Assembly (NCBI GenBank): GCA_964566225.1
Contig: CAZMHV010000004.1
Location: 248 to 64,247 of the forward strand
Length of the DNA: 64,000 nt
Direction: 5' to 3'
Source of the DNA: an uncultured Gammaproteobacteria bacterium
Lineage (GTDB): Bacteria > Patescibacteriota > Patescibacteriia > Magasanikbacterales > UBA922
Positions 14,014 through 64,000 of the stretch are shown here, in pieces (position 1 is the stretch's first letter; each line of letters opens with the position of its first letter). The notes beneath the pieces are model-generated. The model was not told the DNA's origin, ran no database searches, and was given only the letters and a program-made list of their open reading frames with translations. A program made the position numbers and the translations under genes.

Positions 14014-14046
14014 AAAACCGTGAGCAAGGGCTTACGGTTTTTTTAT
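14014..14046. terminator. bidirectional intrinsic terminator
   Basis: ACCGTGAGC-AAGGG-GCTTACGGT with A7 upstream and T8 downstream. Overlaps the stop codon of the convergent giant gene. Confidence 0.6.
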
Positions 14047-31263: not shown

Positions 31264-32136
31264 TTAAACGGCAATGTCAAATTTAATGCCTGGATGACTT
31301 TGATACCCCACTACTTTGGTATCTTCATACTTCCATTCAAAAAGAGATGTAAAATTTTGTGTTTCAATCTGGCAGAGGGGATAGAGGTTTGGGTCACGAG
31401 TGATTTGTTCTTTGGCGCCTTCGATGTGATTGGAGTAAATATGTACATCTGCCAAAAAGCCCACCAACTTTCCTTCTTTGTATCCTGTTTCCTTGGCAAG
31501 CAAGTGCAAAAGAAGTGCATAGCTGGCAATGTTGAAGGGGAGTCCAAGCATGGTATCGACAGAACGTTGATTCCACAGCAAGTTCAGTCGTCCATTGATT
31601 ACCGTCACTTGATAGGAATAGTGGCATGGGGGCAGTGCCATTTCACTGAGCTTGGCTGCATTCCAAGCATTTACAATCATGCGTCGGTCAGAGGGATTTT
31701 TTTTCAGTGTGTCTACTAATTTTTGGAGTTGGTCAACACCTTGCCCCGAGTAATCACTGTCAAAATTTTGGTAGTCAGCACCAAAGTGTCTCCACTGAAA
31801 ACCATACACGGGACCGAGGTCACGCTCTTCCATCATTTTGCGTTTGGTTTCTTCGTCGTGTGCATAGGGAACCTTGCGTGGACTGCACCATTCGTCCCAA
31901 ATATGATTGTTGCGTTCTTGGAGCCAGTGTTTATCTGTGATGCCTTTGATAAAAAATTCGAGTTCACTCGCAATGACTTTGAATGGCATTTTTTTGGTGG
32001 TGAGCAAAGGAAATCCTGTGCTCATGTCGTGCTCAAATATAGCTCCAGCAATCGCAATGGTACCAGTGCCAGTGCGGTCGTCTTTTTGTTCTCCTGTTTC
32101 CAAAATTTTGCGAACAATATCAAGGTAGGCTTTCAT
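31264..32136 (-). CDS. thyA: thymidylate synthase (ThyA type)
   Basis: Active-site region LPPCHYSYQ and RLNLLWNQRSVDTMLGLPFNIASYALL. 290 aa. Confidence 0.9.
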   Translation of the reverse strand: MKAYLDIVRKILETGEQKDDRTGTGTIAIAGAIFEHDMSTGFPLLTTKKMPFKVIASELEFFIKGITDKHWLQERNNHIWDEWCSPRKVPYAHDEETKRKMMEERDLGPVYGFQWRHFGADYQNFDSDYSGQGVDQLQKLVDTLKKNPSDRRMIVNAWNAAKLSEMALPPCHYSYQVTVINGRLNLLWNQRSVDTMLGLPFNIASYALLLHLLAKETGYKEGKLVGFLADVHIYSNHIEGAKEQITRDPNLYPLCQIETQNFTSLFEWKYEDTKVVGYQSHPGIKFDIAV

Positions 32137-33416
32137 AGGTGTAAATCACGTAATGTATAAGAATTGGTACGGTGATAAAATTCAATCGATGCATCGGTTT
32201 TAATCTTTCCTGATCCATAGTTATCATTGGGACCATTTTTATCTGACATTCCGTCGGCTGGAACAATGGTTATTTCCATTCCATGAGAATCTGGCTTTGG
32301 GGTATAACTATGTCCTATTACCAAAGCATTTATTCCTCGGGTTTTCAGAAAATGTTCGAATTTTTTTGAGTACTTGCCGGTCGGAGAAGAAAGTTGTCTT
32401 GGTGTGTATGTACCTGTGAGTACTTTCCCTGGTTGATTTTTGTCGCCAAAGAATGTTTTAAAAAGGGTAGGGTCCATGGCATCCACATCGAGTTTTCCTT
32501 CTTTCATTGGGAAACTTTTTTCCAGCGTTGTCTTGTAGCTATTATTCCAAATTTCTACCAATTTTACAAAGGTCGGATATTCTCCGGTTTTATGAGAGTG
32601 AACTCTTTCATTTGTCAGAACCATAACCATGAATTCGTGTTCGTCTACGTCAGCATGAATAAAGAGAGTGTCATCTTCAATGTGGGCGATGCGTGACATT
32701 TTTTTTAAAAATTCAATGTGTTTGAGGACTGCTTGCGAATTGAAAATTTTTTCACGGTCAAAGTTTTTGAATTCAAATTCTTTTACTTCCACGACTCCTT
32801 GTGCATTATATTGTGGGATACGTTTTTTAAAACGTTCGGTGACAAACGGTTCAAGTTCTTGAAAGGTAGCATGAGCCGGATCAATTCGAAAACCATTATC
32901 ATTGGTGAGTTCTTGCAAAGTCGCAAGCCAGTATACATCATGATTCCCAATGTCCATGATAATGTCTCCTCCAGATTCCAGGGCTTGTCCCTTGAGTAAG
33001 GCCAAAGCTTCTATCACCAGGTCTCCCTGACCACTTCTATCTGCAAGAATATCTCCAAGACAAACCAACTTTTTATTTTCACCAGTCCAAGAAATTCGAA
33101 TCGATCGAAAAAATCGGAGCGCTTCTTCTCTGGAGTCGAGGTCATATTCTTCTATATTTTCAATCACTCGTTCAAATTTGTGGGGAGGTACACTTGGGTC
33201 TAATGTTTCTGTACTGTTTCCCACAAAAGTAATTTCAATACATTCAAGGCGGCTCAAATTTTTCAACAACCCTCGAAAGCTTCCATGATTATCACCCACA
33301 AACAAAATCTCATGTTTTCTTTCAACACGTTCAAAATCGATTGATTGGTCTGGTACTCTCAGAATTTCTTTTGGTTTTTCAAACCACGAAATTTCTCTCT
33401 CCGAAAAATCACTCAT
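32133..33416 (-). CDS. calcineurin-like metallophosphoesterase, substrate unknown
   Basis: GDNHG and GNHD motifs with surrounding His/Asp ligands. 4-nt overlap with thyA, implying co-translation within the thymidylate cluster. Confidence 0.6.
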   Translation of the reverse strand: MSDFSEREISWFEKPKEILRVPDQSIDFERVERKHEILFVGDNHGSFRGLLKNLSRLECIEITFVGNSTETLDPSVPPHKFERVIENIEEYDLDSREEALRFFRSIRISWTGENKKLVCLGDILADRSGQGDLVIEALALLKGQALESGGDIIMDIGNHDVYWLATLQELTNDNGFRIDPAHATFQELEPFVTERFKKRIPQYNAQGVVEVKEFEFKNFDREKIFNSQAVLKHIEFLKKMSRIAHIEDDTLFIHADVDEHEFMVMVLTNERVHSHKTGEYPTFVKLVEIWNNSYKTTLEKSFPMKEGKLDVDAMDPTLFKTFFGDKNQPGKVLTGTYTPRQLSSPTGKYSKKFEHFLKTRGINALVIGHSYTPKPDSHGMEITIVPADGMSDKNGPNDNYGSGKIKTDASIEFYHRTNSYTLRDLHL

Positions 33417-53683: not shown

Positions 53684-56353
53684 TTGAACTTACTTTGTAT
53701 GCAATCTGCTCGTCGACATGAAATCTTACAAGAGAGGAGTCTTTTTGTTGATGAACCCGAAAATGATAGAAGAGAAAAAGAATGGAATCCAGAAAAAACA
53801 TTTTTGATTCGTCAATTAGTGGGTGTGCTTGATCGGGTTGATGCACAAACTGGACCAGTCGGAAGAAAAATTTTACATAATTTTTCGAGAGGTCAAATTA
53901 CTCTCGAAGAATTACAGACAGAATTAGAACAGGCTCCAGATTTTGGTGATTTTTGTGAGCATGTATATGATTACCTTGAAAGAGAGGGTGTGCTTATGCG
54001 TAAAGGGGAAGATTTCTTGGTAGATATGTATCGACTTACACACAGAAAGTTTGCAGGAATTGATAATAAAAAATATGAAACAAATAGAATTAAGAAGAGT
54101 AGAAAAAATAAATTTAGTGATGAATGGCTAGAACAAAACGCAAATTTGCATCATGGTAGATTGGTAGATTTACTCCAAAATGCCTTTTTACAACAAGAAG
54201 TATATGACCTGGATGCTTATGAAGATTGGGAAAAATCTGGTGCAAATCCACAAAAAAAACCTGAAAAAAAATTTCTTTTTTACAACCCACAATCAACTAC
54301 AGAAGCCTTTGATAGAGAAACGATTCAAGGGGCTCACTTTCATATTTTACCTTCTGAAATTTTTGGCAAAAAAGCAGATCATTATTCAGATAATTTAGCT
54401 GATGCAGCTTTTGATGAAGTCACCCTCGCCTGTCTTATTTTTCATCCAAACTATGGTGATGGCAAAAGGGAATCCGGTGTGCTCTTTGTGCGTGATCATG
54501 AGACAAGAGAGTATAGAAAAATTTCTAGAGATTGGTTTGCCAAATCAGGAATGAAATTTGGAGGAGAGTTAGAAGAAGGTAATATTCGAAAGTTTCTTGC
54601 TTCTCCAAAGTTTTTTTTGGCAGAAGGTGGCTACCCTCATCTCACTGAAAAGAATCTTTTAACCGCAACAGATTTTAAGACCATGGCAGGGAGTGAATAT
54701 GCCGAGAAGTATGGAACAAGTCGGGATATTACTCAGAAAAGGGGTATGGTGATGATTGATAAAGTCCACTATACGCTTGGGGTAGAATTTGCCCCCACTT
54801 CTGAAAAGAAATATCGTCTGTATCAACTGTCAGAAATGGTTGGGGGCATTGTAGAAGTTGATCCTGAAACTGGCGAGGATATTCAAATGACCCATGTCAT
54901 TGATATGGTAGGCAAAGATGATCCTCGTCGAGCTGAAAGAAAGGTCTTGACTGCTCCGCAGACCAGTATACATATTCGAGATTTCAATACTGAAGAATCC
55001 AAAATTCTTTTTGAAAAACATCTCACAGGAGGAGAAGCTTTTGAGTTTGCCACTCTGTTGCAGCTCAAACAAAAATTGGCAAAAAAGGCGAATGTTTCTT
55101 TTGAAAGTCTCTCGCCGGGAGAACAGGCTGGGCTTTTGCTCGTCTATCGTAACTGCACTGAAGAAGAACAAAAGAAAATGGATAGTTTTTTGGAAACAAA
55201 AAAAGAAGCGGGCTTTCCTGTGCTTCTGCTTGGTCAGTATGAAAAAAATTTATTTCCTTTGCTTGAAAAGATTGATCAAAAATATTCAGTGCATGAACAG
55301 GCTGCTATTTTTGAAAAAATTGCTGACGTGATTCGTTCACTTCAAACTGTGGAAGAAAAGGTGAAAGAATTTTTTGTTGAAGAGGGAAAGGAAATAAACA
55401 CCAATGATATTTCGCAAGAAATAATGAAACGGGCGGCCAAGCTTATTGAAAAATTTGCCACTGAACCAAAAGCAACCATAAAAATAAGTGAACTGGTCAT
55501 GCGGCTTAGTAGAATCAAAGAAGACATCATGCTTTTTGCTGTTATGTTTAAAGTCGCTGTTAAAGGAGACAAGCATATTGATGTAAAGGAAGTAAAGGGC
55601 ATGGATTTGCAGCATTTAAATTTTGAAGAACTCACTGACAGCGATAAAGAACAAATGGATGAAATTATTCAAAAAAATTGGAGTGATCGAGATCTGTATG
55701 GAGAAAAGAAAATAAAAGAATTTCATGAACTCATGAAAACAGACAAAAATTCACGATACTATGTTATGCGAAAAGATGGAAAGATTACTTCGTTTATTCG
55801 TTTTAAAGATAAAGAAAAAGTGTTTGGGGAACCCATACGCAAAGAGGGTGGATACTTTAATGTCGATCCAGACTTTCGTGGTTCGGGATTTGGTGAAGCT
55901 ATGATGCTCGCTTCTATTATTAAAGAAGGTGAAACAGGTATTATTGATGCAGTGGTCCATCCGGATTTTGATATTGGTATTAGGTATGTAGAAGAAACTG
56001 GTTGTGATATTGTTGGGTTTGGACCAGATAAAGTTGGGACCATGCGTTTTATTTTGGAGTGTGACGATCAAAAAAATAAAAAATCTTTTACTCGTAACCA
56101 AACGGAAGAAGAAGTAATGAATTTTATCGTGAATGATTCTGTTGAAAACCAAATACGGCAACAAAAAAAAGTAATTGGTATAAACTTCAACCCAAAATCT
56201 CGTGAAGATGGAGAAAAGATAAAACTTTTGGCAAGAGAGGGTTACCGAGGAACCAGATATTTTAATAATCCGAATGGAAAAGGGAGAATTATTGTTTTTG
56301 AGTTAGACGAACAAAAAAGGATGGATATTATACAATCGAAGATTGCGAGGTAG
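53684..56353 (+). CDS. 889-aa protein of unknown function with C-terminal GNAT-like acetyltransferase domain
   Basis: C-terminal RGSGFGEAMM (acetyl-CoA-binding Q/RxxGxG/A motif). The rest is unrecognised. Confidence 0.55.
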   Translation: MNLLCMQSARRHEILQERSLFVDEPENDRREKEWNPEKTFLIRQLVGVLDRVDAQTGPVGRKILHNFSRGQITLEELQTELEQAPDFGDFCEHVYDYLEREGVLMRKGEDFLVDMYRLTHRKFAGIDNKKYETNRIKKSRKNKFSDEWLEQNANLHHGRLVDLLQNAFLQQEVYDLDAYEDWEKSGANPQKKPEKKFLFYNPQSTTEAFDRETIQGAHFHILPSEIFGKKADHYSDNLADAAFDEVTLACLIFHPNYGDGKRESGVLFVRDHETREYRKISRDWFAKSGMKFGGELEEGNIRKFLASPKFFLAEGGYPHLTEKNLLTATDFKTMAGSEYAEKYGTSRDITQKRGMVMIDKVHYTLGVEFAPTSEKKYRLYQLSEMVGGIVEVDPETGEDIQMTHVIDMVGKDDPRRAERKVLTAPQTSIHIRDFNTEESKILFEKHLTGGEAFEFATLLQLKQKLAKKANVSFESLSPGEQAGLLLVYRNCTEEEQKKMDSFLETKKEAGFPVLLLGQYEKNLFPLLEKIDQKYSVHEQAAIFEKIADVIRSLQTVEEKVKEFFVEEGKEINTNDISQEIMKRAAKLIEKFATEPKATIKISELVMRLSRIKEDIMLFAVMFKVAVKGDKHIDVKEVKGMDLQHLNFEELTDSDKEQMDEIIQKNWSDRDLYGEKKIKEFHELMKTDKNSRYYVMRKDGKITSFIRFKDKEKVFGEPIRKEGGYFNVDPDFRGSGFGEAMMLASIIKEGETGIIDAVVHPDFDIGIRYVEETGCDIVGFGPDKVGTMRFILECDDQKNKKSFTRNQTEEEVMNFIVNDSVENQIRQQKKVIGINFNPKSREDGEKIKLLAREGYRGTRYFNNPNGKGRIIVFELDEQKRMDIIQSKIAR

Positions 56354-57134
56354 AATTTGGTTTTATATTTGAAGGGGCAATACCCGCATTCCAGATAAAT
56401 TCGAAAATATTTTTAAACATGCCAGCAATTTCTGGATTCATGATTTCAAAACCAATCTGTTCTTTTTCAGTGAGAGTAAAGAAAAGGATACTGTTGTCAA
56501 ATATTTGAATATTGGTTTTAAATGGTGAAAAATCTTTGGGCAAGAATTTGACGTCAGTTGATGTAATATCATTTTTAGCATATCGCTCCAATGCTTTTGG
56601 TGTTTCTACCACAAGCATTTTTTTTACAATATTTTTTTCTTTTCGTTTTTTGACATATTCCGTGTTCAAGTCTCCTGCAAATTCCAAAATAGGATCAATA
56701 GTCATAAAAGTATAAATACAGTTTTTGGCTTCGAGTGAGGTAAATAAGGCATCTTTGATACCGTCTAATCCTTCGTAGTATTTGACGCCTGGTTTGTTTA
56801 TACCGAGGTTGTATATCCCAGCCAGTGACTGCACCATATTTTTGAACTCACCCTCGAGAAGCGACACCTCACGTTTTTTTTCTTCCATGAGGGTAAAGAG
56901 CTTAGTTGGGTGATTTGGCTTGTAGTAGGCTACGCGGCCTTCTTTGCGGTATTCCACAAAGCCTTCTGCAAGGAGGGTGGGGAGGGCTTCGTACACTGTG
57001 GCGCGAGAGAGGGGAACCTTTTCAAGGAGCCTCGGCACGGTCATTTCTCCGTTTTCCACCAGGGTGAGGTAAATCTCGGCAGTGGTGGGTTCCATGCCGG
57101 TTTTGAGGAGGGTTTCGTGGAGGGTGGTGTTCAT
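56328..57134 (-). CDS. TrmB-family transcriptional regulator
   Basis: N-terminal winged HTH (TVPRLLEKVPLSRATVYEALPTLLAEGFVE) and TrmB-like C-domain. Operator-like palindromes lie upstream. Confidence 0.65.
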   Translation of the reverse strand: MNTTLHETLLKTGMEPTTAEIYLTLVENGEMTVPRLLEKVPLSRATVYEALPTLLAEGFVEYRKEGRVAYYKPNHPTKLFTLMEEKKREVSLLEGEFKNMVQSLAGIYNLGINKPGVKYYEGLDGIKDALFTSLEAKNCIYTFMTIDPILEFAGDLNTEYVKKRKEKNIVKKMLVVETPKALERYAKNDITSTDVKFLPKDFSPFKTNIQIFDNSILFFTLTEKEQIGFEIMNPEIAGMFKNIFEFIWNAGIAPSNIKPNSTSQSSIV

Positions 57135-57369
57135 AGGGGTAGGGGAGACTTCCTTTTGAGGAGGTTTTTTTGTTTTAATTTAGCCAAATTTTGAACTTTG
57201 ACCAATAAAGAGTTTAGCTGCCAAAAACACGTTTTTTCTCTTATTCTAGCATTATTATACCATATCTGCTTTAATCTGTCAAGTATTTACTAGACAGATT
57301 ATTTTGACTACTATTTATTATATTTTAGCCAAATTTGGTATAACATATAAACCAAAGTCTGGCATAGTA

Positions 57370-57398
57370 TTGACAAATTCGGCAAAACCTGGTATACT
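57370..57398 (+). promoter_or_regulatory. near-consensus sigma-70 promoter TTGACA-N17-(TGG)TATACT
   Basis: Read directly: TTGACAAATTCGGCAAAACCTGGTATACT. Divergent from the TrmB-like gene. Confidence 0.55.
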
Positions 57399-57404
57399 AG
57401 CTTG

Positions 57405-57545
57405 TTACGATGAAAGACCGAGAAGAAGAACGAACCGAGTAACACCTTACAACTGAACCAAAGTAGCCCCAAAGGAAGGAGAGAGCCTACGGGGAGCAAG
57501 CCAAGCAACAGCCTGGTAAGCAACTACTCTATATATAGATATAGA
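57405..57545 (+). ncRNA. candidate ~170-nt small RNA or riboswitch-like leader (unclassified)
   Basis: Bounded by the strong promoter at 57370 and the terminator at 57546-57575. No ORF apart from a 10-codon leaderless frame. Internal repeats ACCGAG x2 and GTTAC/GTAAC pairing. Confidence 0.3.
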
Positions 57546-57575
57546 AACCACTCTCTCCACAGGGTGGTTTTTTTC
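57546..57575 (+). terminator. intrinsic terminator
   Basis: AACCAC-TCTCTCCACAGG-GTGGTT followed by T7. Confidence 0.55.
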
Positions 57576-58187
57576 GCAAAGACGAATCCGCCTTGGGCGG
57601 ACATCACTTAGGGCGCTGGAGCTCTTGATCAAAAGTACTCACTTTCAATGCTTGTGTGAGGAAGGATCAAGACCCAAGCGGCCTACATGATTCCCACTGC
57701 TCAAATAATACTTGGTTTGCTCTCTGGAGAGATGAGCGAAGCAGGGTGAGAACAGAGGTTGAGTCCAAAAGCCATTACAATGAAATAATTTCTTTGACCC
57801 ATATGAAAAATAGGAGAGAGAATCCTATCGGTGAAAGAAATTTTCAATTCTGAACCCTCTGTGAGACTGAAACATGTCGTAACAGAGAATTTGCTCGAAG
57901 GTTACACTTTGAGAACCTACGGAGGTCGATAGATGCCCTTGACGAAAGTCGAGCAGCAACTCCCTCGCGGCAGGTCTACTACTCGCCTCAGAACGAGAAG
58001 TAGTACCGAGTGCGTCCCGCCTTCATGGATCTGTCAAAAGATTGATGGAGGCAGGGATACTCTGTATTACAGAGAGATCTTTAGAAAAAAACAAGGCGAT
58101 GAGGAAAGGCATTTTGATTATCACGAGAGTGGTGAGAAGAATGCCTTTCCCCGCGCCTGGCAAGCGTAGTCAACAAATGGAGATTGT

Positions 58188-58823
58188 GTGGATACCACCA
58201 AGCCGGATTTCGGCACACTCAACACCCTCAGCGCGTTCGACCACAACACCGTCGGCACCAAGGTGACCGACCCCCGCAAGTTCTACAAGTTTCTGACGGT
58301 CGCGGTTGCCACCCACGACACCTCGAAGGACAAGGCGACTGGCCAGCACTTCCTGATCCTGCCGAAGGAAGCCTTCAGCACCGTCACGGCGGGAGTCGGA
58401 CGTCGGAGCAAGGAACCCAGGGACTACGTGCCGCGCCTTCACCGGGACACCGTCGAGCTCTACCTCAAGCGTGATTTCGCGGCCGCCGTGGAGAGTCTGT
58501 CCGTCGTGGTGTACACGCGGCAGGCCTACCTGGCGGATCCGGACATCAATCCGGACAAGGTGGCCGAGCGCTTCCCCGGCAACGAGGAGAAGCTCGCGGA
58601 CGCCATCAAAGAGACGAAGCGGATTGAAGGATCATCCTTCACCCACATCGTCGTCGCCGTTCTGGCATCCGCAGGCCCACGTGCTCCGTTGTCGCCCATT
58701 CGGTTGGTGAACAACCTCGCCGGTGGCAACAACGAGGTCAACGAGTGGAGCAAGGAGGACATCGTCATGAAGGCGCAGCTGACCAAGGCCTACTACGATG
58801 AGTGGTGCACGGTCGCGGACTGA
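58188..58823 (+). CDS. hypothetical protein A of the GC-rich module (211 aa)
   Basis: GTG start 5 nt after GGAG. Third codon positions almost all G/C. No family recognised. Confidence 0.6.
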   Translation: MDTTKPDFGTLNTLSAFDHNTVGTKVTDPRKFYKFLTVAVATHDTSKDKATGQHFLILPKEAFSTVTAGVGRRSKEPRDYVPRLHRDTVELYLKRDFAAAVESLSVVVYTRQAYLADPDINPDKVAERFPGNEEKLADAIKETKRIEGSSFTHIVVAVLASAGPRAPLSPIRLVNNLAGGNNEVNEWSKEDIVMKAQLTKAYYDEWCTVAD

Positions 58824-59557
58824 TCTCGGCGACGCGGTGCCAAACAAAGAAACCCGGTAGCATCCCACTCACAGACCGACAAGGTCTGGGACAAGCTACC
58901 ACTCAACGGTTTCACTCAGCACAAAATCCAGTGCTGAAATAAATGTTATGAGTCACCTGCATGTTCCAAAAGAACAAAGTGGTGAGCCAAGAGGAAGCAG
59001 TATCCTCCACGGCGAGAAGCCAAACGCACCGGTCGGCGAGAGAGAAGCACTCACTCGCCAACCCTGCAGAAATTTCAATTCGTTGAAGTTTGTGAAGGGG
59101 AGAAAATAGTAACAACTGAAGTTTTTCTTCAAAAGTGGAGAAAAGAACAGTCGCTACTACAACAAGAAAGTCCAGAATACAAAAGTAACTTTGGTCTCAC
59201 AAGAGCAAAGTGAAAAATTGGATGAAGGATGTTACAGCAGCATAATGCATGTGGTGTAGAGAGTGAAGATCATTACAACTGAATATTGCCAAAGTGAAGA
59301 AGAATGTTATTTTCTTTGGCAAGCGCAGGTTTACCAAAACGTGCGTATTGAAAATTGCTTGTCGCTCTGCTGTCTTTACTCAAGGGCAGTGAATGCGATA
59401 AGCAACTCCGGGAAGATAATGTCTTCGACCCGGAGTCCCGACAATCCTCCTCCTGTGAACCGGCGGCACGAGTGCCAATGGAGCAGGCGTCCAGAGGTGG
59501 ACGAAAAATGGAGGCTCCCCCGAGGGTTCGTGGGGAGAGAAGTGGAGAATTTCGACA

Positions 59558-60400
59558 ATGAAGAACGGGCTCAACCCCCAGCGTGGTTCTTTTTCCTGCC
59601 ACCCCGCCATCAGCGCGACGGTCAACTTCCCCCTCACCCTGAACATGGCCAACGCCTTCGTGCCCCAGGTCACCGAGTTCTTCCAGAACTGCGGGGACCT
59701 GCGCGGCTTCAGCAGCTACGGCCTCCCGGGCCAGGGCGTCGCGGCCATCCTGACCCTCCCGGTGCTGGAGATGGCGTGCGGGTTCCCCGTCACGCCGATC
59801 TACGACATCGGGCAGAAGAAGGTGGTCGGCGGGCTCAACCTGGGCGAGTTCCGTCACAGCGTGGTCCGCCCCCGCCGCGCCGAGCTGACCCGCACCGAGG
59901 CCTACGCCGGATACACCGTCATCGACGGCGCCGGTCGGGGTCTGACCCCGCTCCAGCGCGAGGAGCTCGAGGGCATCCTCAGCTCCACGGACATCCGGGT
60001 CGTCGCCGCACCCACGGGCCAGATGGACTTCGGCGACCCCACGAAGGGGATCGTCGAGACCCTCCTGGCCACGGGGCTGAGCTTCGACGACTGGACCTCC
60101 GGCCGCGTCGTGTACCTGCCCCCGGGAATGGGGCTGGCCGCGGTCGTCCAGGCAACGGCGATCTACGGTCTCTCCGAGGCCTGGCCCCGTACCCTGCGCC
60201 TCAACAAGCGCGAGGCCGATGGCCAGTTCCACCTCGACGAGATCGTCGACCCCCAGGCCCTCCGGCAGTTCGGGGTCAGCCTGGCGGCGGCCTGGCGCGA
60301 CGCGGAGCCGACGGTCACGCTCAGCGGCGCGGTCTCTGAGGACTTCCGCCGGCTCCTCACCGAGCTGGCCGAGGCCCACGGCGTCACGATCCGCGGCTGA
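59558..60400 (+). CDS. hypothetical protein B of the GC-rich module (280 aa; alternative start at 59645)
   Basis: Very high GC3 in this frame only, GGAG 10 nt upstream. The overlapping 358-aa and 384-aa ORFs are Arg/Pro/Gly-rich shadow frames. Confidence 0.6.
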   Translation: MKNGLNPQRGSFSCHPAISATVNFPLTLNMANAFVPQVTEFFQNCGDLRGFSSYGLPGQGVAAILTLPVLEMACGFPVTPIYDIGQKKVVGGLNLGEFRHSVVRPRRAELTRTEAYAGYTVIDGAGRGLTPLQREELEGILSSTDIRVVAAPTGQMDFGDPTKGIVETLLATGLSFDDWTSGRVVYLPPGMGLAAVVQATAIYGLSEAWPRTLRLNKREADGQFHLDEIVDPQALRQFGVSLAAAWRDAEPTVTLSGAVSEDFRRLLTELAEAHGVTIRG

Positions 60401-60657
60401 CGCGACGTTCCGCGTCGCTCTCCTCACGAGTAGCGTGTGAGTGAGAGGTCAACATCCTACCAAACCGCTACATTCTCGCCCAGTTCTGGGCAAATCCAAC
60501 AACAATGCACGAGGTCAGTGGGAAGCAAGCACAACGCTTCCCACCCTCAAATAAGTTCTCCAAACAAGTTTGGATGGAGGGCTTTGAGAGGAAAAGTCGT
60601 TCCGTAAAAACACCGGAACGCCTGGGCGCTCACCCAGTCCCGACAAACGGAGGAAAT

Positions 60658-61206
60658 GTGAGCAAGCGAATCGGTGATCGGGTTTTTTCCCTTCAGTTCA
60701 TGATCATCTTCGGTATTCTAATCGGAATCCTGTCCGCGTTGTTCGACTGGTGGAGCTGGATCGAGCCCATCACTGGGGTCGCGACCCTCGCCCTCTCCGC
60801 CGCCGCATGGTGGCAGACGAGACGGGCGAAGGAAGCGTACTACCAGGTGTCCGACAACCACGACGGCAACTGGATCGTCGCGCTGGAAGTCGGCCGCCCC
60901 ATCAGCGAGGCGGTCAAGGATCGTTTCGGCAGTCTGGATGTTCTCGTCCGTGTTCAGGATGTGATTGGAACCTCGGTTCTTCTCACGGAAGATCACTACG
61001 AGAAGGTGGCGCGTGCGGTTTACTCCGCGTGTGCTCTCTGCCAGAACAAGCCGATCGACTTGATCGTTTCAGGCCCGAACGGGCTGGTTTTCATCGTTGG
61101 ACAGATGCTGGGCATGGATCGCTTCCGCGTCCAGGTCTGGCAGTACTACAACGGCGAATACCAGCTAATCCCGCGACCGACGCGGGACTGGCTCGAGCAC
61201 CGCTGA
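60658..61206 (+). CDS. 2-TM membrane protein with ~115-aa C-terminal alpha/beta domain (candidate membrane effector/sensor)
   Basis: GTG start 4 nt after GGAGG. Basic N-terminus, TM1 FMIIFGILIGILSALF, TM2 ITGVATLALSAAAWW, then a domain with DLIVSGPNGLVFIVGQMLG and RVQVWQYYNGEYQLIP. Confidence 0.55.
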   Translation: MSKRIGDRVFSLQFMIIFGILIGILSALFDWWSWIEPITGVATLALSAAAWWQTRRAKEAYYQVSDNHDGNWIVALEVGRPISEAVKDRFGSLDVLVRVQDVIGTSVLLTEDHYEKVARAVYSACALCQNKPIDLIVSGPNGLVFIVGQMLGMDRFRVQVWQYYNGEYQLIPRPTRDWLEHR

Positions 61207-61484
61207 CCCTCTCAAATGTCCCGACTCCACACATGTCGGGAAAGTCCAGAGATCCTTCTTTGGGCGACACTCGGTAGTTCGCGATCAGCACTCACGATCG
61301 CAGCTCCCACGAGATTTTTATTTGTAAAAGTTTCATGGGAGAAAATAAAAACAATGGGTGGCTGGCAGCGCCCAAAATTTTTTTCTTTGTATCTGCCAGA
61401 AATTTTTTGGAAACCATTGCCATAAAGCCCCACGAGCAAATGCTCGACGGAAGTGTGGGGAACAAACGGCAGTGGTGGAGGAAA

Positions 61485-61853
61485 ATGACGAAATCGATTT
61501 TCGTTGTTGACCACCCCTTTCAGCAGGTCAAGGTGATGACGGTCAACGAGGACGGAGAAATCTGTTCCTCGACCGGTGATCACCTCTATGACCTGTCGGA
61601 AGACGGGGACGAGGTCAGCACGTCCATCGACTACGCGAGGGCTTTTCCTCACGTGGCGTTTTACGAGCGCAAGCTCGATGATGCCAGTGGGGACAAGCCG
61701 TTCTTCAGTCTGAGCCAAGAGCGAGCGCAAAGCTTTGTCGATTTCAAGCAGGCGTGCCTGCGAGAGATCAACGACGCTGGCCTCGATGACACTGCTGCCG
61801 CAATCAAGCGGCAGAACGTCATCGACGCCCTGCGCACGCGCTTCGGCTTCTGA
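61485..61853 (+). CDS. hypothetical acidic protein D (122 aa)
   Basis: ATG 4 nt after GGAGG. The upstream part of track ORF 61335..61853 is AT-rich and probably non-coding. Confidence 0.45.
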   Translation: MTKSIFVVDHPFQQVKVMTVNEDGEICSSTGDHLYDLSEDGDEVSTSIDYARAFPHVAFYERKLDDASGDKPFFSLSQERAQSFVDFKQACLREINDAGLDDTAAAIKRQNVIDALRTRFGF

Positions 61854-62301
61854 AGAGCGCGTAGTCGTATCCTCCCCTAGGTCTTGAGCAGATGAGGGGG
61901 AGTGAAAAAGAAAGCGGACCGGCAACGCGCCGACTGAGTGGGGAGAAAGATCTCACTTTGAGCTGCCAGCAACCGTGCAGCAAGACCGCAAGCTTAGGTT
62001 GGTAACCTCAACAACCAAAACTCGGGATTTGGCGATGTGCACACGTCGCCACCCAACACAAGCCCAGCAAAAATTTTTTTGAGGAGAGCACGATGAAACT
62101 CTCTCCTCGGAGTGCATGAAGATTTTCTTTGAAAATTTTTAGCTCCTTGAACGGATAATTGCTGTGCTGCTGTTGGGTGAAACGATTTTTATTTGAGAGA
62201 GAAATAAAAATTGAACCTAAATTCGTGTTATACGAAGTGTTCTTTGTAATTCATCTCGTGCTCTCTCCACCCAGAGAGTTTTTTTGTTTCAGACAAAAAA
62301 A

Positions 62302-62352
62302 CTTCTGCCGCTTTGAAAACATTTTTAGGAGTGTTTGATGAAGCGGCAGAAG
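62302..62352 (+). promoter_or_regulatory. 10-bp perfect inverted repeat CTTCTGCCGC...GCGGCAGAAG sequestering the RBS and start of a 13-codon upstream ORF (62338-62379) that ends 12 nt before gene E
   Basis: AGGAGTG-N4-ATG lies inside the loop. The mini-ORF MKRQKFLNTNNFL stops just before GGAGG-N6-GTG of the 62392 gene. Confidence 0.35.
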
Positions 62353-62391
62353 TTTCTGAACACCAACAACTTTCTATGACGGAGGTGAAAC

Positions 62392-62904
62392 GTGGGAAAT
62401 CAGCCCACCAAAATCCTCGGCCGCTTGCGAAGCGGCGAGGTCGTGCAGGATCGGGCGCAGTCCCACCTGCACGCGGGAGTCATCGAGCTGCTCCCGGAAG
62501 TGCTCAGCTCGACCGATTCGCGCGGCAAGGCGAATTTCGTCCGTGAGTTCCGGTTCAATCGCGTGGTTGGTATCAACAACCGCGTGAAGACCGGAGCGAA
62601 CGACGAGATCGTCTTCGCCCAGCGCGTGGGGCGCACCGGGCTGTCGCGGTTCGTGAAGAATCGCCAGCCCGAGCCGACCCGGTATGTGACCGTCGTCCTC
62701 AACCGCCGCGCGAGTGGCGTGTATGAGGTGTTGACGGCCTACATCGGTTCGGCCGCCCCGCGCGAGCCATGGGATCCTCGCGCGGATCGAGAAGTCTCTG
62801 CACGGTTCTGGGCCTCCGAAGCGCTGCTTTGGGGCTCTGAGCCGGTCGTCGATGGAACTGAAACAACGAACATGCCGGATTCGTTCCGGCTCGAAGGAGT
62901 GTGA
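62392..62904 (+). CDS. hypothetical protein E (170 aa), immediately upstream of and nearly abutting the AAA+ ATPase gene
   Basis: GTG start after GGAGG, high GC3, stop 3 nt before the ATPase ATG. No family recognised. Confidence 0.55.
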   Translation: MGNQPTKILGRLRSGEVVQDRAQSHLHAGVIELLPEVLSSTDSRGKANFVREFRFNRVVGINNRVKTGANDEIVFAQRVGRTGLSRFVKNRQPEPTRYVTVVLNRRASGVYEVLTAYIGSAAPREPWDPRADREVSARFWASEALLWGSEPVVDGTETTNMPDSFRLEGV

Positions 62905-62907
62905 GAC

Positions 62908-64000
62908 ATGGCCGACCAGGCCACCCTGAAGCGGGCCATGGCACTCAAGCCCAAGATTGAGGCCAACACCAACGTCGTCCTGCGCGAGTTCATCAAGCGG
63001 GACGACATCGTGCGGGCAGTCTGGCTCGCGCTCCTCTCCGACTCCGCCGCGTTCTTCCTGGGCCCGCCGGGCGTCGCCAAGACCGCCACGGTGCAGCGCC
63101 TCGCGCGCGAGATCACCGGGTGCGTGTTCTTCGAGGCCCTGATGCCGGCCATCGTTTCGGCGGATCAGCTCTTCGTGGAGTCCACCTCCATCGAGGAGCA
63201 CCCGACGGACGACGGTGGCAAGGCCATCGCGGTCAAGAACAAGCTGGGGCGGGCCACCAAGGCGCACGTCTTCTTCGCCGACGAGGTGTGGAAGACCGAG
63301 CCGATGGTGCTCCAGCCCCTGCTCGACCTGGCCCGGGCCGACGGAGTCCGTCACGATGGGTCGTTCCATGCGACCCCGATCATGGCCTTCCTCGCCGCGT
63401 CGAACGAGCTGCCCGAAGAGGGGAGCAAGCTCGGCGCGATGTGGAGCCGGATGATCATTCGCGTGGACGTTCGGGGTCTCGACCGCTCCGGCCGCAAGGC
63501 CATGGTCGCCTCGCGTCTCCGTCAGGAACGCAAGGAGCCCGTGCCCCAGGCCACGACGAACGACCGCCTCAGCGTGGAGGACTTGAAACTCCTCCAGCAG
63601 GCGCGGCCGCACGTGGAGCTCCCCGACGAGATCATCGAGATCGTTCTCGACCTGATCGAGGAGTTGACGAAGCAGGACGAGGCTGGATTCGGTTGGCTCC
63701 GCGAGGACGACCGCCGGTTCGGATTCATCTGCGACGTCCTGCAGTCGGCTGCCCTGCTGGCCGGTCGCTCGGTCGTCACCAAGGCCGACCTCGCCGCGCT
63801 GGAGTGGATGATGTGGAATGAGCCGAGCCAGATCCCCGCGATCAAGGCCGTACTCGCCCCCCTCATTCGGACGCCGGCCGGCGAGGCACAGGAGATGGTC
63901 GACGCCCTCATGGCGCCGGATGGCGTAGTGGATGGCTTCCTGCAGAACAAGCACGAGAAGTCCACCGACGCCCTCCGGCAATGCCGGGAAACCATGGCGG
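62908..64000 (+). CDS. RavA/MoxR-family AAA+ ATPase, 3'-truncated by window end
   Basis: Own translation: ...FFLGPPGVAKTATVQRLAREI (MoxR-type Walker A GxPGxAK[ST], cf. RavA LLGPPGIAKS) and Walker B HVFFADEVWK. Open to the window end, hence absent from the ORF track. Confidence 0.75.
   Translation, partial: MADQATLKRAMALKPKIEANTNVVLREFIKRDDIVRAVWLALLSDSAAFFLGPPGVAKTATVQRLAREITGCVFFEALMPAIVSADQLFVESTSIEEHPTDDGGKAIAVKNKLGRATKAHVFFADEVWKTEPMVLQPLLDLARADGVRHDGSFHATPIMAFLAASNELPEEGSKLGAMWSRMIIRVDVRGLDRSGRKAMVASRLRQERKEPVPQATTNDRLSVEDLKLLQQARPHVELPDEIIEIVLDLIEELTKQDEAGFGWLREDDRRFGFICDVLQSAALLAGRSVVTKADLAALEWMMWNEPSQIPAIKAVLAPLIRTPAGEAQEMVDALMAPDGVVDGFLQNKHEKSTDALRQCRETMA

What the first reader, a model, noticed from the sequence alone, without database searches (positions are those of the whole stretch)
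58188..64000. Six-gene same-strand GC-rich module (4 unknown small proteins, a 2-TM protein, a MoxR/RavA-like AAA+ ATPase): candidate novel conflict/defence system
All six genes are co-directional and each has its own SD and start. None of the four small proteins (A 211 aa, B 280 aa, D 122 aa, E 170 aa) matches a family I can name. One encodes a membrane-anchored small domain and the last is a MoxR-type AAA+ ATPase tightly coupled (3-nt gap) to protein E; a VWA-type partner would be expected beyond the window if it follows the RavA-ViaA pattern. A foreign block of unknown genes including a membrane effector-like protein and a AAA+ ATPase fits the pattern of defence or toxin islands, but this is inference.
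Basis: partly seen in the sequence, partly recalled or inferred. Interest (0 to 1): 0.75.

Follow-up and report, generated by a model that had tools for sequence, protein, structure and literature searches.

The report
SAVED-linked MoxR–vWA conflict island
The GC-rich block is real: it is a rare, mobile island carried by tiny Patescibacteria-type bacteria that joins two cyclic-nucleotide-sensor (SAVED/Csx15) proteins, one of them membrane-anchored, to a MoxR ATPase–vWA pair, so it looks like an undescribed variant of a known kind of bacterial immune or conflict system, although nobody has tested it.

Summary
At about 57.9 kb GC jumps from ~40% to 55-67%, and six co-directional genes with Shine-Dalgarno sites follow.

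The six genes are not one conserved unit:
- **Core:** B, C, MoxR (F) and vWA (G), plus an ~800-aa unannotated protein H in related loci. B is a stand-alone SAVED protein made of two Csx15-like lobes. C has two TM helices plus one SAVED lobe. Parts of this core recur in five other metagenomic loci, four of them beside a divergent TrmB regulator.
- **A:** belongs to a widespread phage/Patescibacteria family that stands alone elsewhere.
- **D:** an orphan.
- **E:** a variable accessory, fused to AAA-Csx3 in one relative.

Best reading (confidence 0.5): a cyclic-oligoadenylate-type membrane effector with its buffer, coupled to a MoxR-vWA-H trigger. No cyclase or CRISPR array was found nearby, so the signal source is unknown.

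One oddity is unexplained. In the four loci measured, the coding sequences are GC-rich, while the spacers measured in three of them have host-like GC.

Verdict: new variant of a known kind; interest 0.62.

The parts
56328..57134 (-). TrmB-family transcription regulator, divergent from the island; candidate regulator of it
   Evidence: Pfam TrmB on the identical product in L005. A TrmB gene in the same position and orientation lies next to the island in L014/L015, L016 and L010. Regulation of the island is inferred, not shown.
57254..57398 (.). Back-to-back sigma70-like promoters with a 14-nt palindrome (57272-57301) between them; start of an ~800-nt ORF-poor leader before gene A
   Evidence: Minus strand 57282..57254: TTGACA-17-TATAAT, 12/12 matches. 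Plus strand 57370..57398: 11/12 matches. Inverted repeat I17. These are consensus matches only.
58188..58823 (+). Gene A, 211 aa: member of a widespread unannotated family; probably separate cargo, not part of the conserved system
   Evidence: 414 homologues of ~190 aa. The family stands alone in a Patescibacteria chromosome (L008) and beside a terminase (L009). 23 loci lie on large IMG/VR contigs. A is absent from L010, L011, L014 and L016. No hit in Pfam, PHROG, PADLOC, NCBIfam or PDB.
59558..60400 (+). Gene B, 280 aa: stand-alone SAVED-fold protein built of two Csx15-like lobes; predicted cyclic-oligoadenylate binder (buffer/sponge or sensor)
60658..61206 (+). Gene C, 182 aa (233 aa if started at 60505): two TM helices plus one SAVED/CARF-like lobe; predicted ligand-gated membrane effector
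   Evidence: Pfam SAVED 29.2 bits against a cut-off of 26.2. PADLOC SAVED4--SAVED 3e-18 and SAVED_TM 6.5e-14. Weak SLATT_1 hit on the TM part, 7e-4, below cut-off. The family profile hits the second lobe of the CalpL SAVED domain at 3.4e-4, 9R8S at 0.013 and the Cap14 SAVED domain at 0.19. Homologues in L010 (53%), L011 and L014 (32-33%).
61485..61853 (+). Gene D, 122 aa, acidic; orphan of unknown role in the variable slot between C and MoxR
   Evidence: SD GGAGG and ATG. Codon-position GC pattern is like its neighbours. No hit in Pfam, PHROG, PADLOC, NCBIfam, PDB, GenBank phages or the related islands.
62392..62904 (+). Gene E, 170 aa: phrog_23674-type domain; variable accessory, possibly an output domain tied to Csx3
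   Evidence: phrog_23674 at 3.8e-23. About 40% identical proteins in jumbo phages GAP32, CBB and Milchi. In L016 the same domain (48% identity) is the C-terminus of an AAA-Csx3 protein (PADLOC C3a67, 6e-44). Invariant H25, H27, D71, E72, R78, R81, R86 and N90-R91. No PDB relative.
62908..64000 (+). Gene F, first 364 of 401 codons: MoxR-clade AAA+ ATPase, RavA-like. The gene would end at about window-equivalent position 64113. It is followed on the identical contig L001 by vWA protein G (562 aa, L001 2164-3852).
   Evidence: For F: Pfam bpMoxR 78 bits, AAA_5 and AAA_lid_8. Best NCBIfam hit is RavA at 1.3e-36, far below its cut-off. Walker A GPPGVAKT and Walker B FFADE. For G: VWA_2 28.5 bits, ViaA-like, MIDAS DxSxS..T..D invariant in six orthologues, phrog_24053 at 1e-52.

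Best explanation
The block is a horizontally mobile conflict (probably anti-invader) island of Patescibacteria-type bacteria. It sits next to a TrmB regulator and has two coupled arms.

**Arm 1, cyclic-oligonucleotide output (inferred mechanism).**
- C is a small inner-membrane protein with two TM helices and one SAVED lobe. On binding a cA4-like nucleotide it would pair or stack and perturb the membrane.
- B is a soluble, effector-less SAVED protein made of two Csx15-like lobes. It would bind the same ligand and set the threshold or switch the response off.
- Because B has Arg where Csx15 has its catalytic His, it probably acts as a sponge or sensor rather than a nuclease.

**Arm 2, NTPase trigger.**
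- A RavA-like MoxR hexamer (F) and a ViaA-like vWA protein with an intact MIDAS site (G) are present.
- In all five related systems an ~800-aa protein H follows. H has a conserved ~500-aa Cys-rich N-terminal module and a variable C-terminus.
- By analogy with MoxR-vWA ternary systems, vWA would hold a peptide of H, and ATP hydrolysis by MoxR would remodel it when an invader is sensed.
- That step would either produce the nucleotide signal or release the effectors.

**Other genes.** E and D occupy a variable accessory slot between the arms. A is unrelated cargo.

**Shown:** domain identities, gene order, and recurrence.

**Inferred:** ligand, direction of signalling, coupling of the arms, and a defence role.
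For: **Domain identities.**
- C: SAVED above the Pfam cut-off, plus 2TM.
- F and G: MoxR and vWA with intact motifs.

**Recurrence.**
- L011: B-C-F-G-H, compact.
- L014: TrmB|B-C-x-Z-F-G-H, with host gene content like the window.
- L010: TrmB|Csx3x2-C-X-y-Z-F-G-H.
- L016: TrmB|X-B-...-AAA-Csx3-E-...-F-G-H'.
- L013: Z-F-G-H.

**Functional substitution.** In L010, B's place is taken by a tandem Csx3 protein. Csx3 is another head-to-tail cA4 binder or ring nuclease (PMC13148439).

**Rosetta-stone fusion.** The E domain is fused to AAA-Csx3 in L016.

**Signs of an arms race.** Modules are shuffled between islands, and there is a hypervariable patch in the G C-terminus and H N-terminus between two otherwise identical hosts.

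**Precedent.**
- MoxR-vWA ternary conflict systems with nucleotide-signalling and SAVED/Csx3 domains (PMC7159879).
- CARF/SAVED proteins coupled to vWA-MoxR-VMAP near type III CRISPR (PMC10910872).
- TM effectors gated by cA4 (PMC11229360).

**Self-containment.** No cas10 or CD-NTase family appears among the precomputed Pfam hits of the called genes within ±10 kb of L014 and L016. The ORFs I scanned in L010 and L011 gave none either.
Against: - No signal-making enzyme has been identified. H matches no Pfam family in 50 members and no PDB sequence. Its AF2 model is unusable, pLDDT 45.
- Whether H exists in this genome is unknown. The contig could not be followed beyond 165 nt after G, and 20 H-family clusters checked did not come from it.
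- C carries only one SAVED lobe, and its SLATT hit is below cut-off.
- PADLOC has no model hit for F, G or H.
- B also occurs alone between HicB-like antitoxin genes in an Uhrbacteria MAG.
- Co-location of two arms could simply reflect a defence island.
- There are no experimental data.
Confidence: 0.5

Rival explanations
1. Two independent systems lie side by side. B and C would be ancillary effector and buffer for a type III CRISPR or CBASS system encoded elsewhere in the genome, which supplies the cyclic nucleotide. F-G-H would be a separate MoxR-vWA system that merely shares a defence hotspot next to TrmB.
For: - Csx15, Csx3, SAVED-TM and AAA-Csx3 are families described from type III CRISPR loci.
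- No cyclase is recognisable in any island.
- B occurs without F-G in L017-L019.
- L013 shows Z-F-G-H at a contig end with no B or C visible.
Against: - No CRISPR-like array in the 64-kb window.
- No cas hit among the ten host ORFs scanned with Pfam and the six host ORFs scanned with PADLOC.
- The two arms travel together in four distinct loci despite module shuffling and different hosts.
- In L011 they are packed with almost no spacing.
- Patescibacterial genomes are small and only rarely carry type III CRISPR (my own knowledge, not tested here).
Confidence: 0.2
2. The block is not a conflict system. It would be a RavA-ViaA-like chaperone pair that matures or inserts a membrane or respiratory-type complex. 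C would be its membrane client, and the SAVED/Csx15 folds would sense an ordinary metabolite or nucleotide.
For: - The best named relatives of F and G are RavA and ViaA.
- Well-studied MoxR-vWA pairs are assembly chaperones (PMC7159879 section 8; PMC9976466).
- Related F-G pairs occur in large phages without B, C or H.
Against: - F and G fall far below the RavA/ViaA equivalog cut-offs: 127 against 681 bits, and 48 against 500 bits.
- The island is compositionally foreign, rare and shuffled, with a hypervariable patch. This is not how housekeeping genes behave.
- The partner domains (Csx15, Csx3, AAA-Csx3, SAVED) are so far described in immune signalling.
Confidence: 0.12
3. The block is a counter-defence or addiction cargo of a mobile element or phage. 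B would act like the viral SAVED ring nuclease AcrIII-2 or a sponge, neutralising another organism's cA4 signalling. The rest would be phage-derived genes (A, E, F and G all have relatives in large phages).
For: - The best structural match of B is the viral anti-CRISPR SAVED protein 9R8S (PMC12751052).
- The B region aligned to Csx15 motif-I has Arg in place of the catalytic His, as expected for a binder or sponge (PMC13148439).
- A, E, F and G have PHROG or IMG/VR relatives.
Against: - No integrase, terminase or structural phage gene lies next to the island in the window, L014 or L016.
- No B homologue was found in IMG/VR.
- A sponge does not explain a conserved TM-SAVED partner, nor the conserved chromosomal position beside TrmB in four hosts.
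Confidence: 0.1
4. The block is an assembly artefact: a GC-rich contig from another organism wrongly joined to a low-GC genome.
For: - There is an abrupt GC change.
- The Logan contigs of the same sample break at 57852/57928 and inside other spacers.
Against: - The same junction (large protein, TrmB, island) is assembled independently in L014, L015, L010 and L016, from different samples and assemblers.
- L014 has host genes on both sides of the island.
- The spacers inside the island have host-like GC.
Confidence: 0.02

Closest known systems
vWA-MoxR 'ternary' conflict systems (Kaur, Burroughs, Iyer & Aravind 2020, eLife; PMC7159879)
   Same: - A MoxR AAA+ gene is directly followed by a vWA gene with a MIDAS site, plus a third large protein with a variable region (H in relatives).
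- It is linked to nucleotide-signalling domains; that paper reports SAVED and Csx3 as fused domains.
- It shows diversification and patchy distribution.
- F passes the Pfam bpMoxR model built from these systems.
   Different: - The third component H has no VMAP, iSTAND, FtsH or beta-propeller signature.
- G has no beta-propeller after its vWA domain.
- The SAVED and Csx15 modules are separate small proteins, not domains fused to vWA or VMAP.
- The hosts are Patescibacteria-type organisms with small genomes rather than multicellular bacteria.
CARF/SAVED proteins coupled to vWA-MoxR-VMAP near type III CRISPR loci (UAS-55, -64, -66 of Altae-Tran et al. 2023, Science; PMC10910872)
   Same: A cyclic-oligonucleotide sensor domain is combined with a MoxR-vWA ternary system, read as a multi-protein signalling cascade.
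   Different: - Those sensors are fused to EAD7 or TCAD9 adaptor domains and were found by association with CRISPR arrays.
- Here there is no adaptor domain and no CRISPR array in view.
- The sensors here are a 2TM half-SAVED and an effector-less full SAVED.
Nucleotide-gated membrane effectors: Cam1 (TM+CARF), Csx23, CBASS Cap14 (2TM-SAVED)
   Same: C has N-terminal TM helices and a C-terminal CARF/SAVED-type sensor. The C family profile weakly hits the Cap14 SAVED domain (9OM7) and hits CalpL SAVED.
   Different: - C has only one SAVED lobe (~115 aa) and is much smaller than Cap14.
- No cyclase is encoded beside it.
- Neither ligand nor pore activity has been tested.
Csx15 / Crn3 (Csx3) ring nucleases and sponges, and the viral SAVED ring nuclease AcrIII-2 (PMC13148439, PMC12751052)
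   Same: - The C-lobe of B matches Csx15 by sequence, and whole B matches AcrIII-2 (9R8S) by fold.
- It is effector-less.
- It is replaced by tandem Csx3 in L010.
- A Csx15 dimer is reported to superimpose on one AcrIII-2 SAVED monomer, which is what a tandem Csx15 protein would mimic.
   Different: - B is a covalent tandem of 280 aa, against 125-145 aa for Csx15.
- The Csx15 catalytic His (motif I) aligns with Arg in the invariant DGxGRG motif of B.
- B is not next to cas genes.
RavA-ViaA of Enterobacteria
   Same: They are the best named sequence relatives of F and G. They share the RavA-type Walker A (GPPGxAK[ST]; the E. coli motif is from my own recollection), an ATPase-then-vWA gene order, and a vWA domain at the C-terminus of the partner.
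   Different: Scores are far below the equivalog cut-offs. F has 401 aa, against a RavA model of 498 positions. The partners and genomic setting are different.
Esr threat-sensing pathway of Actinomycetales (MoxR-vWA-beta-propeller-kinase-FHA; bioRxiv 10.64898/2026.09.08.750141)
   Same: A MoxR-vWA-centred sensing module in the Patescibacteria/host conflict arena.
   Different: Esr is in the host, not the epibiont. It signals through a kinase and FHA protein to Esx secretion and has beta-propeller sensors. None of these parts is present here.

Membership tests
vWA-MoxR ternary conflict systems (Kaur et al. 2020) | MoxR-clade AAA+ ATPase with intact Walker A/B | tested here: met
   Pfam bpMoxR 78 bits (cut-off 27), AAA_5 and AAA_lid_8. 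GPPGVAKT and FFADE are conserved between F and its L010 orthologue.
vWA-MoxR ternary conflict systems (Kaur et al. 2020) | Adjacent vWA protein with a MIDAS motif | tested here: met
   G on L001 is 18 nt downstream of F. VWA_2 scores 28.5 bits (cut-off 27). D401, S403, S405, T469 and D497 are invariant in six orthologues.
vWA-MoxR ternary conflict systems (Kaur et al. 2020) | Third conserved component of a described type (VMAP, iSTAND, FtsH, or beta-propeller/TPR protein) | tested here: not met
   In relatives the third gene is H. No Pfam family matched in 50 H-family members at E<=0.001, and there was no PADLOC, NCBIfam or PHROG hit. For the window itself the gene after G could not be retrieved.
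beta-propeller subtype of the ternary systems (source of Pfam bpMoxR) | [quoted passage not shown] | tested here: not met
   The conserved vWA region of G runs to the last residues of the 562-aa protein, so no domain follows it.
RavA-ViaA | Scores above the NCBIfam equivalog cut-offs for RavA and ViaA | tested here: not met
   RavA 126.8 bits against 681; ViaA 48.5 bits against 500.
Csx15 (NCBIfam NF040560, CARF superfamily cA4 binder/ring nuclease) | Sequence match above the curated cut-off | tested here: met
   B scores 38 bits against a cut-off of 35, aa 129-237. The B-family profile hits PDB 9TEU Csx15 at E=2e-5.
Csx15 (NCBIfam NF040560, CARF superfamily cA4 binder/ring nuclease) | Single-domain ~125-145 aa protein forming dimers; catalytic motif-I His in nuclease-active members | tested here: not met
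   B is a 280-aa tandem of two lobes. The position aligned to the motif-I His of 9TEU is R127 in the invariant DGxGRG motif.
Csx15 (NCBIfam NF040560, CARF superfamily cA4 binder/ring nuclease) | Binds cA4 | not testable with these tools
   Needs biochemistry.
SAVED domain proteins (Pfam PF18145) | SAVED fold (two fused CARF-like lobes) | tested here: met
CBASS | CD-NTase (SMODS) cyclase encoded with the effector | tested here: not met
   None of the island proteins of the window, L010 or L011 scanned here matches a cyclase model. The precomputed Pfam hits for the called genes of L014 and L016 list none.
Type III CRISPR ancillary module | cas10/effector complex genes or a CRISPR array nearby | tested here: not met
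   No repeat array in the 64 kb. No cas hit among the host ORFs scanned or in the flanks of L011, L014 and L016. The rest of the genome was not visible.

The most novel reading that the evidence does not exclude
The island is a self-contained, CRISPR-independent cyclic-oligonucleotide immune pathway of Patescibacteria.
- The unannotated ~500-aa Cys-rich module of H would be a new kind of nucleotide second-messenger synthase.
- The MoxR-vWA pair would keep it off and switch it on when the variable C-terminus of H meets an invader.
- The tandem-Csx15 SAVED protein would buffer the signal, and the 2TM half-SAVED protein would execute the response.

A further twist is possible. The persistently GC-rich coding sequence might be selected, for example to spare the system's own mRNAs from an A/U-directed nuclease.
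Probability: 0.15. Interest if true: 0.85.

Novelty: new variant of a known kind. Interest (0 to 1): 0.62.

Why it matters
- Patescibacteria (CPR) are ubiquitous, mostly uncultured epibionts with tiny genomes, and little is known about how they defend themselves.
- This island suggests they carry a compact signalling system that joins two well-studied immune themes. These are cyclic-oligoadenylate sensors of the CARF/SAVED type and MoxR-vWA NTPase 'thresholding' chaperones. The combination has so far only been glimpsed bioinformatically.
- It singles out testable proteins:
  - a naturally fused tandem Csx15, which behaves structurally like a SAVED domain;
  - a minimal 2TM half-SAVED protein;
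  - an unannotated family (H, about 157 clusters among 1.84 billion representatives) that is the obvious candidate for the missing sensor or signal generator.
- The compositional pattern (GC-rich genes with host-like spacers, at the same chromosomal site in diverged hosts) is an evolutionary puzzle about how such islands move and are maintained.

Tried and rejected
**Reaching the rest of the contig**
- The gene after G could not be reached. Exact-protein look-ups of A, E, TrmB and G returned only short Logan contigs. The 164-kb NCBI contig is not in the index.
It was not found.

**Proteins that stayed unresolved**
- The AF2 model of H from four sequences has pLDDT 45, so I did not use it for fold search.
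- PDB sequence searches gave nothing significant for the E profile, the A profile, the H profile, D, or L010's 300-aa protein X.
- E and the small protein Z, which occupies the same slot in L010, L013 and L014, are not related (hhalign probability 0.3%).

**Collection scans**
- Close relatives of F are rare: one locus among 185,579 species genomes, one in the JGI metagenomes, none in IMG/VR.
- B has no relatives in IMG/VR.
- A and D have no match in GenBank phages.

**Spacers and non-coding sequence**
- There is no repeat shared among the spacers or with the host.
- There is no nucleotide similarity to the spacers of related islands.
- There is no Rfam family apart from chance miRNA-like hits on one hairpin.
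- The leader RNA 57400-57580 is not unusually stable (z -1.6).
- There is no tRNA or tmRNA in the window that could mark an integration site.

**Ideas rejected**
- A synthetic or engineered construct. This is excluded by the diverged natural homologues in the same genomic setting.
- A prophage. No phage structural or integration genes are adjacent.

Full report
**1. The observation**

The window runs at 36-46% GC for 58 kb. It then switches to 55-67% GC for its last 6 kb.

The low-GC part is an ordinary bacterial chromosome. It carries gyrA, gyrB, ThrRS, GatB and a type IV pilus ATPase.

Each has a GGAG/GGAGG 3-8 nt before its start.

GC3 of the island genes is 0.74-0.94, against 0.27-0.44 for host genes. 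The spacers between them (734, 257, 279 and 538 nt, plus 1053 nt upstream) lie at 42-54% GC.

Two details need correcting:
- C most likely starts at GTG 60658, giving 182 aa. That form is called in an independent assembly and aligns from residue 1 with homologues.
- NCBI's call for D is the longer 172-aa ORF. The 122-aa start has the better ribosome-binding site.

**2. Extension and authenticity**

An exact-protein look-up of E returned Logan contig L001. It is 100% identical to window 61969-64000 and continues for about 2 kb.
- F is a complete 401-aa MoxR protein.
- 18 nt later comes G, a 562-aa protein whose C-terminal third is a vWA domain.

The join between host and island is not an artefact. 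The same arrangement (large ~900-aa protein, then a TrmB gene on the opposite strand, then the island) was assembled independently in L014/L015, L010 and L016. In L014 host genes flank the island on both sides.

**3. What the proteins are**

*B (280 aa).*
- It passes the curated NCBIfam cut-off for Csx15 over residues 129-237.
- A profile of its 35-member family hits the Csx15 crystal structure 9TEU at E=2e-5. The N-terminal half weakly hits the second Csx15 structure.
- The AlphaFold model is confident, with pLDDT 94.6 and pTM 0.88.
- So B is an effector-less SAVED protein made of two Csx15-like lobes.
- According to PMC13148439, Csx15 dimers bind cA4 by head-to-tail stacking and act as sponges or slow ring nucleases. 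A Csx15 dimer also superimposes on one AcrIII-2 monomer.
- In B the position aligned with the catalytic motif-I histidine is an arginine inside an invariant DGxGRG motif. This points to binding rather than cleavage. That last step is inference.

*C.*
- It has two predicted TM helices, followed by about 115 residues.
- These pass the Pfam SAVED cut-off, match PADLOC's SAVED4-TM models, and align with the second lobe of the CalpL SAVED domain.
- The TM part gives a sub-threshold SLATT hit.

*F and G.*
- F passes the Pfam bpMoxR, AAA_5 and AAA_lid_8 models. Its best named relative is RavA, far below the equivalog cut-off. It has intact Walker motifs.
- G is ViaA-like. All five MIDAS residues are invariant in six orthologues.

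*E.*
- It belongs to phrog_23674. About 40% identical proteins occur in jumbo phages.
- Several invariant His, Asp, Glu and Arg residues suggest an enzyme. Nothing in the PDB resembles it by sequence.

*A and D.*
- A belongs to a large unnamed family.
- D has no relative anywhere I searched.

**4. What travels together**

| Locus | Arrangement |
|---|---|
| L011 (JGI metagenome) | B-C-F-G-H, tightly packed |
| L016 | TrmB, AAA_14, X, B, a HAD-like protein, p147, an AAA-Csx3 protein ending in an E domain, small ORFs, F, G, H' |

The conserved core is therefore a [Csx15-type or Csx3-type binder], usually a TM-SAVED protein, then MoxR-vWA-H, with a variable slot between them. D and E sit in that slot in the window.

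Three facts tie the two halves to cyclic-oligoadenylate signalling:
- B is replaced by tandem Csx3 in L010. Csx3 is another head-to-tail cA4 binder.
- E is fused to AAA-Csx3 in L016.
- C's nearest solved relatives are cA4-binding SAVED domains.

A is not part of this system.
- Its relatives stand alone in a Patescibacteria chromosome and beside a terminase.
- They are frequent on large IMG/VR contigs.
- None of the related islands has one.

**5. The third component, H**

- The word-indexed search found only four H proteins.
- The exhaustive HMMER search found 157 cluster representatives, 98 of them at E<1e-30.
- These share an N-terminal ~500-residue module with four conserved Cys pairs. Their C-termini vary widely in length.
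- None of 50 members has any Pfam domain apart from one zinc finger.
- There is no PDB, PADLOC, NCBIfam or PHROG match.
- The AF2 model from four sequences was unusable.
- Named members come from Parcubacteria, Sungbacteria and WOR-3. The one named B homologue is from Uhrbacteria.
- Together with the TrmB-rich, small-genome gene content, this makes a Patescibacteria host likely for the window. That is an inference, not a classification.
- Whether the window's own genome encodes H could not be established.

**6. How it most likely works**

*What is established in the literature.*
- In MoxR-vWA pairs the vWA MIDAS site captures a peptide of a client. ATP hydrolysis in the MoxR ring then remodels the client (PMC7159879, section 8).
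- In the 'ternary' conflict systems of that paper, a third protein with a variable region and nucleotide-signalling domains completes the system.
- CARF/SAVED proteins coupled to such systems have been noted near type III CRISPR loci (PMC10910872).
- TM proteins with CARF-type sensors depolarise membranes on cA4 binding (PMC11229360).

*The proposal.*
- H is the sensor, and possibly the signal generator. G and F hold and release it.
- C is the membrane-acting output. B is the buffer. E and D are swappable accessories. TrmB is the local regulator.

*What supports the TrmB role.* There are back-to-back promoter-like sites with a palindrome at 57254-57398.

Every mechanistic step here is inferred. 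Only the domain identities and the gene linkage are shown.

*The weakest point.* No cyclase is recognisable in any island, and no CRISPR array or cas gene is visible.

*Rivals.*
- Most serious: the SAVED arm answers to a signal made elsewhere, and the MoxR arm is simply a neighbour in a defence hotspot.
- Less likely: a housekeeping chaperone, a counter-defence cargo (B as an AcrIII-2-like sponge), or an assembly artefact.

**7. Oddities**

*Composition.*
- In the four loci measured, the island coding sequences are much GC-richer than the host.
- In the three loci where I measured them, the spacers inside the island have host-like GC.
- Neutral amelioration should affect third codon positions and spacers alike.

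*Location and conservation.*
- The island occupies the same chromosomal position in hosts whose gyrA is only 65% identical and whose TrmB is 27-32% identical.
- Yet F and G are 59-83% identical between islands.

*Shuffling.*
- C of the window pairs with L010's C. C of L011 pairs with L014's C.

*Hypervariable patch.*
- L010 and L012 have 100% identical flanks.
- They differ by 10-50% at nucleotide level in the C-terminus of G, the G-H spacer and the N-terminus of H.

These patterns fit repeated exchange of cassettes from a GC-rich pool and diversifying selection at the vWA-H interface. I could not test this.

**8. Comparison, novelty and score**

*Closest known kinds:*
- the vWA-MoxR ternary conflict systems;
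- the CRISPR-associated CARF/SAVED versions of them.

*Membership fails on the third component.* H is not a VMAP, iSTAND, FtsH or propeller protein, and G lacks a propeller. It also fails for RavA-ViaA, CBASS and type III ancillary modules.

B is a Csx15 by the curated score but not by architecture.

I file the island as a new variant of a known kind, and give these reasons for the score:
- PADLOC 2.0 recognises only B and C, not the system.
- I could not run DefenseFinder.
- I found no paper describing this architecture, but my literature search was limited to open-access text.

Interest is 0.62. It is a coherent, rare and testable system in an under-studied lineage, with an unannotated key protein and a real compositional puzzle. 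There is no functional evidence yet, and the conceptual distance from published predictions is moderate.

Noticed in passing
window 57254-57398 and leader to 58187: Back-to-back strong sigma70-like promoters: minus strand 12/12 for the TrmB gene, plus strand 11/12 toward the island. A 14-nt palindrome (57272-57301) lies between them. An ~800-nt ORF-poor leader follows, with a T-run hairpin at 57551-57574. The leader RNA is not unusually stable (z -1.6).
   Followed up: partly
window 62260-62355: A terminator-like hairpin with a T-run (62260-62284) is followed by a perfect 15-bp stem (62299-62313 / 62341-62355), about 35 nt before the start of gene E. This suggests E-F-G is a separately controlled transcription unit. 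The only Rfam hits are chance miRNA-like matches.
   Followed up: partly
window 58188-64000; L014 10001-18472; L016 8835-20863; L017 7746-8630: Island coding sequences are much GC-richer than their hosts in all four loci measured (GC3 up to 0.94). The spacers between the island genes, measured in the window, L014 and L016, have host-like GC. Simple amelioration after transfer does not explain this.
   Followed up: partly
L010 12087-18893 versus L012 1-6789: Two assemblies have 100% identical host flanks. [quoted passage not shown] This looks like allele replacement or diversifying selection at a protein interface.
   Followed up: partly
L016 12120-13817: A 565-aa protein joins an AAA-Csx3 architecture (PADLOC C3a67, 6e-44) to a C-terminal domain 48% identical to window gene E. 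The same island also has a HAD-like small protein and a DHH-motif-like 317-aa protein (X), which is shared with L010.
   Followed up: partly
L026-L048 (IMG/VR contigs of 50-400 kb): The gene A family occurs on 23 large 'viral' contigs, and beside a terminase in L009, yet has no match in GenBank phage genomes. Some of these huge contigs may be Patescibacteria fragments rather than phages.
   Followed up: no
L020-L025 (IMG/VR, 73-210 kb contigs): Large phage-like contigs carry MoxR-vWA pairs 26-35% identical to F-G (phrog_19600 plus phrog_24053) but without B, C, E or H.
   Followed up: no
window 57852/57928, 58976, 61969 (ends of Logan contigs L005, L003, L001): Independent Logan assemblies of the same sample break inside the island's spacers rather than in genes. 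This hints at strain variation or coverage changes there.
   Followed up: no
window 14032-18465 (-), 10763-12586 (-), 32133-33416 (-): Large host ORFs of 1477, 607 and 427 aa have no Pfam or PADLOC match at all.
   Followed up: no
window 53684-56353 (+) and 56328-57134 (-): An 889-aa protein with a weak C-terminal GNAT match converges on the TrmB gene, and their 3' ends overlap by 26 nt. A protein of similar size sits in the same position in L014 (900 aa), L016 (795 aa) and L010 (936 aa, with a methyltransferase end).
   Followed up: partly
L017-L019 (Uhrbacteria-type contigs) 7746-8630: A B-family gene (GC3 0.91 in a ~51% GC contig) stands alone between two HicB-like antitoxin genes, without MoxR-vWA within the contig.
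   Followed up: no
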